64,000 bases of DNA, taken from NCBI GenBank assembly GCA_000004695.1, contig CM000155.2, positions 2,688,001 to 2,752,000 on the forward strand, read 5' to 3'. The notes below the pieces were generated by a model. It made no database searches. It worked only from the letters and a program-made list of their open reading frames with translations, and was not told the origin of the DNA. Both the position numbers and the translations under genes were made by a program. Position 1 is the stretch's first letter; every line of letters starts with the position of its first letter. Source of the DNA: Dictyostelium discoideum. Lineage: Eukaryota. Of this stretch, positions 25,819 to 30,751 are shown piece after piece.

Positions 25819-27052
25819 TAATTAATTATAGTAATAACAATTTAATAATAATTTTTTTTTTTTTTTTTTAATTTTTTTTAAAGTTTTTGATGGATTTTTA
25901 GTAAAATATTGTGCATCAATTGTAGGTTATGGTTGTATGGTATTACCAATTTATACTGGTATTAGAGGTAGTTCAGGTAAAGATTCAACAGAGTTAACAA
26001 AGGATTACATTAGAAATACACAATTGATGGTAGCATTATCACAAGCAATTGGTCAATTAGTATTATTGGGTAATAAGGTTACATTGATGGCAGGTTATAC
26101 ATCACGTGTTTCAGAGTTATTAGAGATGATTAAATCAATTAAGGAACGTGGTACATCACAATTTACCATTGTCCACGAGGATGATGTACCAAATCCATTA
26201 ACAAACTCACCAGTGAATGATAAGTATGATACAAGTGTTGATATGTCAAGTTGGTTAGAGGATTGGAGAAAGAGATCAGATCAAACTCGTATTGTTAAAC
26301 GTCAACAATCCAACAGATCATCAGCAAGTGGTGCAACCACTGTCTATGGTGGTGGTACATTTGTTGAGGGTGATTTCATCAAATTCGAGAATGTTTCAAT
26401 CGTATCACCAGAGGGTAAACTTTTGGTAGAGAATTTAGATTTCCAAGTTATGCCAAATCAAAATGTAATGATCACTGGTCCAAATGGTTCAGGTAAGAGT
26501 TCACTCTTTAGAATCCTCGGTGAATTATGGCCACTTCATTGTGGTACTGTAATTAAACCAAGAAAGGAAGATATCTTATTCGTTCCACAAAAACCTTACT
26601 TGGTATTGGGTACCCTCCGTGATCAAATCATCTATCCACATAGTCATGATGATATGAAGAAATTGGGTGTCACCGATGATGATCTTCAACATCTTTTAGC
26701 AACCGTAGATCCAAATCTTACTATCATTCGTCAATGGAATTGGGATGATACCAAAGATTGGTTCACTGCCCTCTCTGGTGGTCAAAAACAAAGAATTGCC
26801 ATGGCTCGTCTCTTTTATCATCGTCCACAATACGCTATTCTCGATGAATGTACAAGCGCCGTCTCTGATGAAGTCGAAGGTAAAATCTATGAAACTTGTA
26901 AAAAACTTGGTATCACTTTATTCACCGTTTCTCATCGTCCACAATTAAGAGCTTACCACGATTACGTTTTACTCTTTAATGGTAGAGGTGGTTGGGAATG
27001 GTCAAAAATTGATCATGATGATGATCATTTAAAAAAACCATTATCACATTAA
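24310..27052 (+). CDS. Peroxisomal-type ABC half-transporter, subfamily D (ABCD), about 741 aa. Model: join(24310..24511,24652..25117,25237..25441,25543..25726,25884..27052).
   Basis: The TMD carries the ABCD signature ...GGADRIDN A DQRVTSDIEQFCNS..., which spans the exon 2/3 junction (compare NPDQ.ITQDVEKFC). The NBD has GPNGSGKSSLFRILGELW (Walker A), LSGGQKQRIAMARLFYHRPQYAILDECTSAVS (signature and Walker B) and TVSHR. Donors GTTAGT, GTATGT, GTAAGT and GTAAGT all keep the exon phases consistent. Confidence 0.8.
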
Positions 27053-27181
27053 ATAAGTAATTTTAATTTTTTAAAAAAAAAAAAAACAAAAAAAAAAAAA
27101 CAAATAATATAATAAATAAAAAAAAAACCTTTTTTTTTTTATACAATTTTTTAAATATATATATTTAATTTATTTATTTAT

Positions 27182-27730
27182 TTATTTATTTGCAAGTTCT
27201 AATATTTTTCTTACAGTATTAAAATTTCTAGCAGTATGAGGTAAATTTTTTATTTTTTTATTTAATGATTTAAATCCAGAAGTTAATTCAGAGGATGGGC
27301 CACATTGTTTACCAAAATAATAAATAATACCATTAATTAATTCCCATTTACTTTTTTCAGTCATTCCAGATTTTTCTTTTTCATATTCACATTGATCTAA
27401 TGACTCACCAGTTGGGAAAAAAACAAAAACTGATTTTGGTATTGAAAGATCAAATGGATTAGATGAAATTATATCTTTATATTCTTCAATATTATAAATA
27501 GCTAATTTAGGATCTTTAACTGAAAACTTTTCTGATAAAATATTTATTACATCATTTTTAATTACAATTTTACTTTCTAATGATTCTATTATTAAATTAC
27601 CAGTTTGAATATATGTTTCAATTTTTTTAATTGATTTAACTTTACTTAATTCTTCTTTTAATTCTTTCATTTTAATTAAATTTTGTGAAGCAATATTTAT
27701 TGATCTTAAAAATATTAAATATTTATTCAT
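27182..27730 (-). CDS. DUF1697-family protein of 182 aa. It is intronless and of a bacterial-type family.
   Basis: ATG at rc 27728-27730. The N-terminus YLIFLRSINIASQNLIKMKELKEELSKVKSIKKIETYIQTGNLIIES matches the DUF1697 signature (Y.ALLRGINVGG.N...MAELR..L..LGF..V.TYIQSGN). The length and the absence of an intron are typical of that family. Confidence 0.65.
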   Translation of the reverse strand: MNKYLIFLRSINIASQNLIKMKELKEELSKVKSIKKIETYIQTGNLIIESLESKIVIKNDVINILSEKFSVKDPKLAIYNIEEYKDIISSNPFDLSIPKSVFVFFPTGESLDQCEYEKEKSGMTEKSKWELINGIIYYFGKQCGPSSELTSGFKSLNKKIKNLPHTARNFNTVRKILELANK

Positions 27731-28006
27731 TTTTTTATTTATTTGTGTAATGTTTAATCAAACTTTAACTAAAAACACAAAAACGAAAATTAAAAAAAAA
27801 AAAAAAAAAAATCAAATAAAAAAAAAAAAAAATGTCAGATTAATTCCAAGAAAAAGATTATTAATTTATTTTTATTTTTTTTTTATTTTTTGAAAAGAAT
27901 TATTGTAATTAATTATTTTATTATTTTGCAATTACAATTTTGAGAAAATTTGATAGGATTTTACAATATTACTTTTTTTTAATTTGGATAATTTAGATAA
28001 TTTTTT

Positions 28007-30751
28007 TTAATTTGTAATTTCAGAAATATAAAAATTTGAATCAGATAATTTATAATAATTATCCCAATAACCAGCAGAGATAATACCACCATAACCTTTA
28101 CCACGGAAATCAGGACCTGTTACAATGAAATCAGGGCCAGTAATATCACCACTTCTTTGTGGAATTGAATGAAGTGCATTATCTAAACCAAGTGAATCAG
28201 TACCAGCAATTACTAAAACTAAATTACCACCACATCTATTTGGCATAAGGAAAGCAATACCAATACCATCACCTTGGAATAAATAACCATTTTCACCTCC
28301 AATATAGAAAGAATTATCTTGATTAAAAGAAACATCTGATCTAATGATATATTTATTAGTTATTAAATTTTCATTTGAATTACCAATTAAAATTACATTT
28401 TCACTACATGATGTATCTTGATTTGATAATTGCTCAATGTATTGTTGATCAGAGAAAATGGTTACAGAACCTCTACCATAATTATTCCAAAAATTGTTTA
28501 CATAGATTGCTGCTTGTTTTGCTTGAGCAATGGTTTGATTATTTTGAGAAGCTGTACCATAGACGATTTTAATACTACTTTCAAAGATTTGTCTAATTGG
28601 ACCATAGGTTGAAGGATTTTTCTCATTTTGAATCCAAGTTGAATTATCTGGATTTATGGTCCAATTTTTTTGATTTGATCTTTGTTGTTGTGGAGTATTT
28701 TCAAAATGATATTGTGGATAAAAGTATTGATCAACAGTAAATTGTTGTTTATTATCAATTATCAAAGTACTTGGGAATTCAGTACGTATTGGTTCTTTAG
28801 TGATTGCAAATCTTTTAACATTTTGAGTATCTAAATACCAAATTAAATCACCATTTGAATCATAAACTTGAGTTAATTTAATCTTTGCTAATCTGAATGG
28901 TATTGAAAGTTGAAGAATTAAAATATTTGCTCTTGGACCTGTTCCAGATGGATTGAGGGTTGAAATTGTAATTGTTTTTGGTATTGGTGGAATTGAAGTT
29001 AAACTATTATAATAAGCTTGCATATAAGAATCTGTAAGAATTCCAGGGAAATAATGATTTTCATTTGGTACTTCACTAACGATTACAGCATTCTCATCTT
29101 GGCTTTGTTCAGCAACCATTCTTACGATACGACGTGAATGATATGGATTGACGACAGTATCGTTTTCACCATATCTTGCCATTAATTTTAATCCAACTAA
29201 ATTACTTGATATAATGTCAACATTATTCTCTTCGATTGAAATCATTAAGAGAGCTTTTAAAGTTTGATCAATATATGAAAAACCTGGTGAAGTTTCATAG
29301 GAAATGTACATTGATAATTTTGGGAAACCACTTGCACAAGCACCACCCAATGCTAAATCACCTTGACGTACTAAAAGATTCCAACAACCCATACCACCCA
29401 TACTATGACCAATGAATAAAATCTTTGAAGAATCAGTTTTATAAAATTGTTTTTGAGATTCTACTACACCTGGTAATGATTCAACCAATGATTCAACCGA
29501 ATAAAATACATTTAATCTACTTGAACTTGCCCAATCATAACCACAATTAGTTCTACCAGTTGGCATTACAGTCCAAAGATTCTCTTGTCTTTGAAATTGA
29601 GCAAACCAACTTGGATCTCTTGTAACCCCTAAAAATCCATGTGTAGCAACCATAACATTACATAAATTTTCATTTAAACCACATTGATTAATTGGTGATA
29701 ATAACATTGCATATTGAACTGTTTGATCAAAATCTAAGAATGTATATAAAAATGCATTTGTAAATTCTGTACAATTAAATGCTATTGATGTAGTATATAA
29801 TTTATTAATTGAATCACCACCACCACCACCAATTTCATTTGTATTAATTGAAACTTGAATTTCTAAATTTAAAGGACAACCTAATTGATTTGAGATTGTT
29901 GAATCTTTTATTGAAATTTCAAATGGTATTGAGAATCTTTGACCAACTAATATATTAGTTAAAGATGTATTTAAGATTGGATTTATTTGAAATAATTGAT
30001 CACTTGTACTATTTTCAAGTAATCCAATAGTTATACCATTTGTTAAATCCATTTCACCAGAATTTAATAATGTTATAGATGCATATTTACTTGCTAATAT
30101 ACCACTAACAATATCTGGTACCAATGATTCAGTTTCAATGATTGAAAGGGTTTCTTTAATTGGTATTAGATTACAAGTGAATTGTGAAAATGCTGAACCA
30201 TAAACTCTTGTACTACTTAACATCTTTAAATAAATTCTATATTGTTCACCTTGATTTAAATAAATGATTTGTTGACCATTACCATATCCGAAAAAGTCAC
30301 CGGAAAATTCATATATTTGGGTTGGATTTGATTGAGATTGAATGTAGAATGTACGAATATCAGTACAATTGATAATATAATTTGATGATGGTTCAGTTGC
30401 TGTAAAATCACCAATTACATAAGCATACCATAAATAAATTTCCCAACCAAATGGCATATCATAAAAAGACCAATTAATACTTGATGACCATTCCATTTGA
30501 AATGCTCCTGGTGTACTCCAATTATATGTACTCCAACCAACTACACTATTATGTCCTAATTCTGATGGATAGGTTGTATTATCACCAATTGGAATATTAA
30601 AAATTCCACCATATGATTCTAATGTATCATAAATTTCTTCTCTTTCTCCAATTGGGAATGGTCCAATTACATTATAAATATTTGGTAGTGTTGTACATTT
30701 TATATAATTGATTAATAATAATAAAATTTTTAATATATATAAATATTTCAT
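28007..30751 (-). CDS. Secreted alpha/beta-hydrolase (lipase/esterase-type) protein of 914 aa with large N- and C-terminal extensions.
   Basis: ATG at rc 30749-30751. Signal peptide MKYLYILKILLLLINYIKC. The nucleophile elbow GHSMGG sits in ILFIGHSMGGMGCWNLL (a PGAP1/DUF676-type lipase motif). The ORF is continuous, with no evidence of introns. Confidence 0.65.
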   Translation of the reverse strand: MKYLYILKILLLLINYIKCTTLPNIYNVIGPFPIGEREEIYDTLESYGGIFNIPIGDNTTYPSELGHNSVVGWSTYNWSTPGAFQMEWSSSINWSFYDMPFGWEIYLWYAYVIGDFTATEPSSNYIINCTDIRTFYIQSQSNPTQIYEFSGDFFGYGNGQQIIYLNQGEQYRIYLKMLSSTRVYGSAFSQFTCNLIPIKETLSIIETESLVPDIVSGILASKYASITLLNSGEMDLTNGITIGLLENSTSDQLFQINPILNTSLTNILVGQRFSIPFEISIKDSTISNQLGCPLNLEIQVSINTNEIGGGGGDSINKLYTTSIAFNCTEFTNAFLYTFLDFDQTVQYAMLLSPINQCGLNENLCNVMVATHGFLGVTRDPSWFAQFQRQENLWTVMPTGRTNCGYDWASSSRLNVFYSVESLVESLPGVVESQKQFYKTDSSKILFIGHSMGGMGCWNLLVRQGDLALGGACASGFPKLSMYISYETSPGFSYIDQTLKALLMISIEENNVDIISSNLVGLKLMARYGENDTVVNPYHSRRIVRMVAEQSQDENAVIVSEVPNENHYFPGILTDSYMQAYYNSLTSIPPIPKTITISTLNPSGTGPRANILILQLSIPFRLAKIKLTQVYDSNGDLIWYLDTQNVKRFAITKEPIRTEFPSTLIIDNKQQFTVDQYFYPQYHFENTPQQQRSNQKNWTINPDNSTWIQNEKNPSTYGPIRQIFESSIKIVYGTASQNNQTIAQAKQAAIYVNNFWNNYGRGSVTIFSDQQYIEQLSNQDTSCSENVILIGNSNENLITNKYIIRSDVSFNQDNSFYIGGENGYLFQGDGIGIAFLMPNRCGGNLVLVIAGTDSLGLDNALHSIPQRSGDITGPDFIVTGPDFRGKGYGGIISAGYWDNYYKLSDSNFYISEITN

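What the first reader, a model, noticed from the sequence alone, without database searches (positions are those of the whole stretch)
27182..27730. Intronless bacterial-type DUF1697 gene, a candidate horizontal acquisition
A 182-aa ORF with a proper ATG matches the DUF1697 signature (YLIFLRSINIASQNLIKMKELKEEL...TYIQTGNLII). That family is overwhelmingly bacterial and about 180 aa long. The gene has no intron, sits between two unrelated host genes, and its codon usage is already amoeba-like (A/T-rich), which suggests an old transfer.
Basis: partly seen in the sequence, partly recalled or inferred. Interest (0 to 1): 0.55.

Follow-up and report, generated by a model that had tools for sequence, protein, structure and literature searches.

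The report
Bacterial-type DUF1697 gene in Dictyostelium
This small intronless gene of the social amoeba Dictyostelium discoideum (DDB_G0293206) belongs to a protein family of unknown function that is otherwise found almost only in bacteria, and it was most likely captured from a bacterium by an early dictyostelid ancestor; this is one more example of a known kind of event, not a surprise.

The parts
27182..27730 (-). Complete intronless CDS of the DUF1697 protein (182 aa plus stop), = D. discoideum AX4 DDB_G0293206 / XP_629253.1 / Q54C13
27695..27706 (-). Codons for R9-S-I-N12, the N-terminal family motif (R and N conserved in at least 99% of bacterial members)
   Evidence: Alignment A3 column conservation
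27596..27616 (-). Codons for T39-Y-I-Q-T-G-N45, the most conserved family motif (TYIQ[ST]GN)
   Evidence: Invariant columns in A1, A2 and A3; the same motif served as the search pattern; read directly from the sequence
27224..27235 (-). Codons for T166-A-R-N169, the C-terminal family motif (T-x-R-N)
   Evidence: Invariant or near-invariant columns
27731..28006 (-). 276-bp, very AT-rich (GC about 0.13) 5' intergenic region between the upstream 914-aa gene and the DUF1697 start; presumed promoter/5'UTR (inferred)
   Evidence: Sequence; composition profile
27053..27181 (.). 129-bp AT-rich 3' intergenic region shared with the convergent ABCD transporter gene; AATAAA repeats follow the DUF1697 stop codon directly on the minus strand (poly(A) signal role inferred)
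   Evidence: Sequence
25937..27052 (+). Context: last exon of the neighbouring ABC half-transporter (ABCD type), convergent with the DUF1697 gene; the neighbourhood is conserved in D. citrinum and D. firmibasis
   Evidence: Pfam ABC_tran; orthologous loci L012 and L001 carry PF06472+PF00005 next to DUF1697
28007..30751 (-). Context: upstream 914-aa gene on the same strand (weak Peptidase_S9 match, hydrophobic N-terminus); a 905-aa gene occupies the same position in D. citrinum

Best explanation
The ORF is a functional, domesticated D. discoideum gene (DDB_G0293206). It encodes a single-domain DUF1697 (SP0830-like) protein. Its ancestor was most likely acquired once from a bacterium by an early member of the Dictyosteliales, before the split of Dictyostelium, P. 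violaceum and Tieghemostelium. It then duplicated, moved around the genome and took on amoeba-like composition. Shown here: family membership, the fold, residence in the eukaryotic genome, purifying selection, and a restricted eukaryotic versus broad prokaryotic distribution in the searches made. Inferred: the direction of transfer, a single event, and its timing. The protein has no signal peptide or membrane segment that I could see. It is predicted to fold into two ferredoxin-like alpha/beta lobes. The family-invariant polar residues (R9, N12, Q42, N45, T166, R168, N169) suggest a small-ligand-binding or catalytic pocket. My best guess, at about 20-25% confidence, is that it binds or processes a phosphorylated sugar, nucleoside or nucleotide metabolite.
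Confidence: 0.8

Rival explanations
1. Several independent transfers from bacteria into different dictyostelid lineages, rather than one ancestral acquisition.
For: Bootstrap for a single clade is weak at 29%. The genomic locations in D. discoideum, D. purpureum (two copies), T. lacteum and P. violaceum are unrelated. A ciliate seems to have acquired the family independently, so capture may be recurrent.
Against: The best NJ tree recovers a single clade. All dictyostelid copies share derived states at G143, E158 and L161. They score 206 bits or more against a common profile, versus 113 bits or less for any bacterium, although they were used to build that profile.
Confidence: 0.1
2. Ancient vertical inheritance: DUF1697 was present in an early eukaryote or amoebozoan and was lost almost everywhere except the Dictyosteliales.
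For: The tree is unrooted, so nesting within bacteria is not formally shown. Divergence from any bacterium is high (about 30-38% identity).
Against: It needs very many independent losses. No other eukaryotic hit appeared among the best hits of three searches of a collection that includes EukProt. The family spans at least ten bacterial phyla.
Confidence: 0.06
3. Transfer through an intermediate such as a virus or another eukaryote, rather than directly from a bacterium.
For: This cannot be excluded for an old event. Two IMG/VR contigs carry partial matches.
Against: There were only 2 partial hits in 2.9 million viral contigs, none in 50,697 phage genomes, and only 2 haloarchaeal megaplasmids among 72,556 plasmids.
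Confidence: 0.03
4. Bacterial contamination, an assembly artefact, or a decaying non-functional relic.
For: None found for contamination. For decay: dN/dS of 0.2-0.36 is not very low, and degenerate copies exist (P0005 and P0009).
Against: GC3 is 0.049 and the gene is flanked by eukaryotic genes. The protein is recorded on a 3.6-Mb contig. Synteny holds in sister species. The ORF is intact in six species and the family motifs are retained.
Confidence: 0.01

Closest known systems
SP0830 of Streptococcus pneumoniae (PDB 2HIY), the only solved DUF1697 / PF08002 protein
   Different: Only 21% identical in the structural alignment. The amoeba protein has S for the family-invariant G15 and differs at G143, K148, E158 and L161. 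SP_0830 sits in a deoB/PNP nucleoside-salvage gene cluster (PMC9174251), whereas the amoeba gene is a solitary eukaryotic transcription unit.
The published candidate bacterial HGTs of D. discoideum (Eichinger 2005; 16 retained in Sucgang 2011, PMC3188802 Table 2: ThyA/Thy1, IptA, PP_kinase, OsmC, TerD, DUF885, DUF1121, DUF1289, DUF1294 and others)
   Same: Same kind of case: a Pfam family that is essentially prokaryotic, found in D. discoideum with a D. purpureum homologue, and fully adapted to host composition.
   Different: DUF1697 / DDB_G0293206 is not named in the passages of that table that were read, including its four DUF entries. No held paper mentions the gene. Here the distribution reaches T. 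lacteum and P. violaceum, which dates the event before the radiation of the Dictyosteliales rather than only before group 4.
PPERSA_00010290, the 'PF08002 family protein' of the ciliate Pseudocohnilembus persalinus, reported as HGT from Bacteroidetes (PMC4614350)
   Same: The same protein family, reported as a bacterial acquisition by a bacterivorous protist.
   Different: A different eukaryotic supergroup and presumably an independent event. I did not compare the sequence itself.
TirBCD of Dictyostelium (bacterial TIR-STING-derived HGT, bioRxiv 10.64898/2026.04.30.722052)
   Same: The same lines of evidence for domestication: low GC, synteny among sister species, and origin near the base of the Dictyostelia.
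   Different: An unrelated protein family with a known biochemical activity. Some Tir genes gained introns, while all DUF1697 copies examined lack them.

Membership tests
DUF1697 (Pfam PF08002; SP0830-like) | Scores above the Pfam gathering threshold and covers the whole model | tested here: met
   85.4 bits against a cut-off of 24.4, E=6.3e-24, profile 1-137 of 137
DUF1697 (Pfam PF08002; SP0830-like) | Conserved motifs R-x-[IV]-N near the N-terminus, T-Y-I-Q-[ST]-G-N, and T-x-R-N near the C-terminus | tested here: met
   R9, N12, T39-N45, T166, R168 and N169 are all present. 21 of 28 columns conserved in at least 85% of bacterial members are identical. G15 is S
DUF1697 (Pfam PF08002; SP0830-like) | Two-lobed alpha/beta fold of SP0830 (2HIY) | tested here: met
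DUF1697 (Pfam PF08002; SP0830-like) | Stand-alone single-domain protein of about 170-185 aa | tested here: met
   182 aa; homologues run 170-185 aa
Bacterium-to-eukaryote horizontally transferred gene | The gene is truly integrated in the eukaryotic genome (not contamination) | tested here: met
   Eukaryotic neighbours, AT-rich flanks, GC3 0.049, a 3.6-Mb contig, and synteny in D. citrinum and D. firmibasis
Bacterium-to-eukaryote horizontally transferred gene | Broad distribution in prokaryotes | tested here: met
Bacterium-to-eukaryote horizontally transferred gene | Patchy, narrow distribution in eukaryotes | tested here: inconclusive
   Only dictyostelids (Dictyostelium spp., P. violaceum, T. 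lacteum) appear among the named best hits. One ciliate case is reported in the literature. Absence from Acytosteliales and other Amoebozoa was not rigorously tested
Bacterium-to-eukaryote horizontally transferred gene | The eukaryotic sequences form a supported clade nested within prokaryotic sequences | tested here: inconclusive
   In the NJ tree the dictyostelids are monophyletic with bacterial neighbours, but bootstrap is 29%, the tree is unrooted, and the neighbours (Listeria, unnamed metagenomic contigs) may be biased by composition

The most novel reading that the evidence does not exclude
DUF1697 may be a gene that bacterivorous protists capture repeatedly: the dictyostelid ancestor here, and a scuticociliate in the literature. 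That would happen if it supplies an activity useful to cells that digest bacteria, for example salvage or detoxification of a bacterial nucleoside or sugar-phosphate metabolite. If so, genetically tractable D. discoideum would be a good system for finding the function of a widespread bacterial family with thousands of members and no known role.
Probability: 0.12. Interest if true: 0.5.

Novelty: new member of a known kind. Interest (0 to 1): 0.27.

Why it matters
Bacterial genes captured by Dictyostelium are a small, much-cited set; Sucgang 2011 retains 16. Several of them turned out to have interesting roles, for example ThyA, IptA and polyphosphate kinase. DDB_G0293206 appears to be an unlisted addition. 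Its distribution places the capture before the Dictyosteliales radiated. DUF1697 itself has thousands of bacterial members, one structure and no known function. A viable knockout or overexpression strain in D. discoideum could give a first phenotype. Otherwise this is an ordinary, already annotated gene, and the finding does not change current understanding.

Tried and rejected
1. NCBIfam and PADLOC scans of the window protein (PADLOC also for two bacterial members) gave no meaningful hit, so there is no curated name and no link to known defence systems.
2. Guilt by association in bacteria failed. ORFs from 80 GTDB loci were clustered. No neighbour family occurs in more than 12 loci, and the recurrent ones are confined to closely related Flavobacteriaceae, which is lineage synteny. 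The immediate neighbours in six Bacillota loci are heterogeneous and none resembled deoB or a nucleoside phosphorylase on inspection.
4. Donor identification was inconclusive. Profile and phmmer rankings favour Bacteroidota, while the NJ sister group is Listeria plus an unnamed contig. Many top hits are FYMINK-rich, so the ranking is probably biased by composition. I rejected naming a donor phylum.
5. Looking for a mobile-element or viral vector found 0 phage genomes, 2 haloarchaeal megaplasmids and 2 partial viral-contig hits.
6. Literature searches for DDB_G0293206 (0 papers), DUF1697 (2 incidental mentions) and PF08002 (one relevant paper on the ciliate HGT; three others were Plasmodium gene-ID collisions) added little. 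The Eichinger 2005 paper is not held.
7. tblastn for a second copy in the window found none.
8. Look-ups of the ten most AT-biased unnamed hits, to see whether any were eukaryotic, showed all to be metagenomic and unnamed. The one locus inspected is a bacterial KduI/KduD cluster.

Full report
**Observation**

The window carries an ATG-initiated ORF of 182 codons at 27182..27730. It lies on the minus strand, which the finding did not state. Its product matches Pfam PF08002 (DUF1697) at E=6.3e-24 (85.4 bits against a cut-off of 24.4), over profile positions 1-137 of 137. It also aligns end to end (residues 1-178 against 4-179) with the only solved family member, 2HIY (E=1.6e-9). The ORF is therefore complete and needs no intron.

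An exact-sequence look-up identifies it as D. discoideum AX4 DDB_G0293206 (XP_629253.1, UniProt Q54C13). UniRef already labels it 'DUF1697 domain-containing protein', and it is recorded on a 3.6-Mb contig. The gene model and the domain call are therefore not new.

**Is it a real amoeba gene?**

Yes.

- The CDS has GC 0.202 and GC3 0.049. That is even more AT-biased than its neighbours (GC3 0.11 and 0.24). The window as a whole is 23.6% GC.
- The gene is flanked by a 276-bp intergenic region of about 13% GC on its 5' side. On its 3' side a 129-bp AT-rich spacer, with AATAAA repeats, is shared with a convergent gene.
- The neighbours are the last exon of an ABC half-transporter and a 914-aa gene with a weak Peptidase_S9 match. 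The transporter's orthologues carry PF06472+PF00005, which is the ABCD type.
- D. citrinum has the same order: 905-aa gene, then DUF1697, then a convergent ABCD gene and an acid-sphingomyelinase-like gene. D. firmibasis keeps the ABCD side.
- Contamination is excluded.

**Distribution**

An exhaustive phmmer scan of 1.84 billion cluster representatives found 1988 hits at E<=1e-3.

- The five best hits are dictyostelid: a second D. cf. discoideum copy, two D. purpureum genes, Tieghemostelium lacteum and Polysphondylium violaceum. Closer orthologues exist in D. citrinum, D. dimigraforme and D. firmibasis.
- All dictyostelid copies whose DNA I read (D. purpureum, T. lacteum, P. violaceum) are uninterrupted ORFs. 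They lie among plainly eukaryotic genes: V-ATPase E, RabGAP, P450, kinases, actins, Arf and AP5B1. None is syntenic with the D. discoideum locus.
- The next-best hits that could be placed are all bacterial. One contig carries OmpA, PrsW and MnmA. One has a GldB neighbour, which suggests Bacteroidota. One has a gene overlapping an ABM-domain gene. The others are Listeria floridensis, Sphingobacterium and a KduI/KduD cluster.
- A profile built only from dictyostelid sequences scores dictyostelids at 206 bits or more, then drops to 113 bits or less. Every named protein below the gap is bacterial: mostly Flavobacteriaceae, plus Shewanella, Microbulbifer, Peregrinibacteria and Balneolaceae.
- One peptide pattern found at least 531 relatives in GTDB species genomes, from at least ten phyla. 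Two haloarchaeal megaplasmids carry the gene.
- The family is essentially absent from phage genomes and viral contigs.

**Phylogeny**

I built an NJ tree (Kimura distances, 175 columns, 382 sequences).

- The dictyostelid sequences form one clade. P. violaceum is basal, and there are two sub-lineages: D. purpureum-2 with the D. discoideum complex, and D. purpureum-1 with T. lacteum.
- Bootstrap is 94% for the D. discoideum complex but only 29% for the whole clade.
- The sister group is Listeria plus an unnamed contig. This disagrees with the Bacteroidota-rich profile rankings.
- Many top hits are FYMINK-rich, so compositional attraction is likely. I therefore do not name a donor.
- Independent support for one origin comes from derived states shared by all dictyostelids at positions that are at least 87% conserved in bacteria: G143, E158 and L161.

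**Is it functional?**

- Pairwise Nei-Gojobori dN/dS among D. discoideum, D. citrinum and D. firmibasis is 0.22-0.36.
- 21 of the 28 columns conserved in at least 85% of bacterial members are identical in the window protein. These include R9, N12, TYIQxGN (39-45) and T166-x-R168-N169.

**Mechanism**

The biochemical role of DUF1697 is unknown.

- No curated NCBIfam or PADLOC model matches.
- Neighbour clustering across 80 bacterial loci finds no conserved partner beyond lineage-level synteny.
- The only experimental hint comes from S. pneumoniae. SP_0830 sits between deoB and a purine nucleoside phosphorylase and shares their antibiotic-sensitivity Tn-seq profile (PMC9174251). That could be a polar effect.
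- My best guess is a soluble protein with a conserved polar pocket that binds or acts on a phosphorylated sugar, nucleoside or nucleotide metabolite. This is inference, at roughly 20-25% confidence.

**Comparison with what is known**

The case is of the same kind as the published D. discoideum candidate HGTs. DUF1697 / DDB_G0293206 is not named in the passages of Sucgang 2011's 16-gene table that I read, which list DUF885, DUF1121, DUF1289 and DUF1294 (PMC3188802). No held paper mentions the gene. A ciliate 'PF08002 family protein' has been reported as an HGT from Bacteroidetes (PMC4614350), so capture of this family by a protist has a precedent. The lines of evidence for domestication parallel those used for Dictyostelium TirBCD.

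**Verdict**

I put the probability of a bacterial origin by HGT at about 0.8. It was most likely a single event before the radiation of the Dictyosteliales. The donor is unresolved and exhaustive eukaryotic sampling is still needed. This is a new, apparently unlisted member of a well-known kind of event, in an already annotated gene of unknown function. Interest is modest.

Noticed in passing
L001:7941-8486 (D. firmibasis), compared with gene model 8001-8486: The deposited D. firmibasis model, and by analogy the D. dimigraforme model (both 161 aa), start at internal Met21. The D. firmibasis DNA shows an intact 181-aa ORF that includes the conserved N-terminal R-x-x-N motif, so those annotations are truncated.
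   Followed up: yes
P0005 (D. cf. discoideum ACTFIZ_000131, on a 282-kb contig): A second, degenerate DUF1697 copy in a D. cf. discoideum strain: 160 aa, an internal deletion of about residues 60-85, and 67-79% identity. No second copy lies in this window. Whether AX4 has one elsewhere was not checked.
   Followed up: partly
L011:8001-8531 (D. purpureum copy 2, P0009): This paralogue has lost the R-x-x-N motif (a 4-residue deletion) and Q42, yet it groups with the D. discoideum lineage in the NJ tree. It may be decaying or neofunctionalised.
   Followed up: no
L013:6001-6609 (T. lacteum, P0008): A D/E/N-rich low-complexity insertion of about 30 residues lies in a loop of the T. lacteum protein. 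This is typical of dictyostelid proteins and is a sign of post-transfer 'amoebisation'. An unrecognised intron was not excluded.
   Followed up: no
window 28007-30751 (-): A 914-aa single-ORF gene with a hydrophobic, signal-peptide-like N-terminus and only a weak Peptidase_S9 (prolyl oligopeptidase family) match (E=5e-5). D. citrinum has a 905-aa gene with no Pfam hit on record at the same position.
   Followed up: partly
window 24822-27052 (+): The ABCD-type half-transporter next door appears to be split into several exons (ORF pieces at 24822-25127, 25280-25465 and 25937-27052). This contrasts with the intronless DUF1697 gene and the 914-aa gene.
   Followed up: no
Homologue set P0001-P0397: Many of the top-ranking bacterial hits are as FYMINK-rich as the amoeba protein. 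Similarity rankings to AT-rich eukaryotic queries are therefore biased by composition and should not be read as donor identity.
   Followed up: partly
L097 and L098 (IMG/VR contigs), 3001-3273: Two viral-contig entries carry a partial DUF1697 match covering query residues 1-92 only. They may be prophage-boundary host DNA or truncated genes.
   Followed up: no
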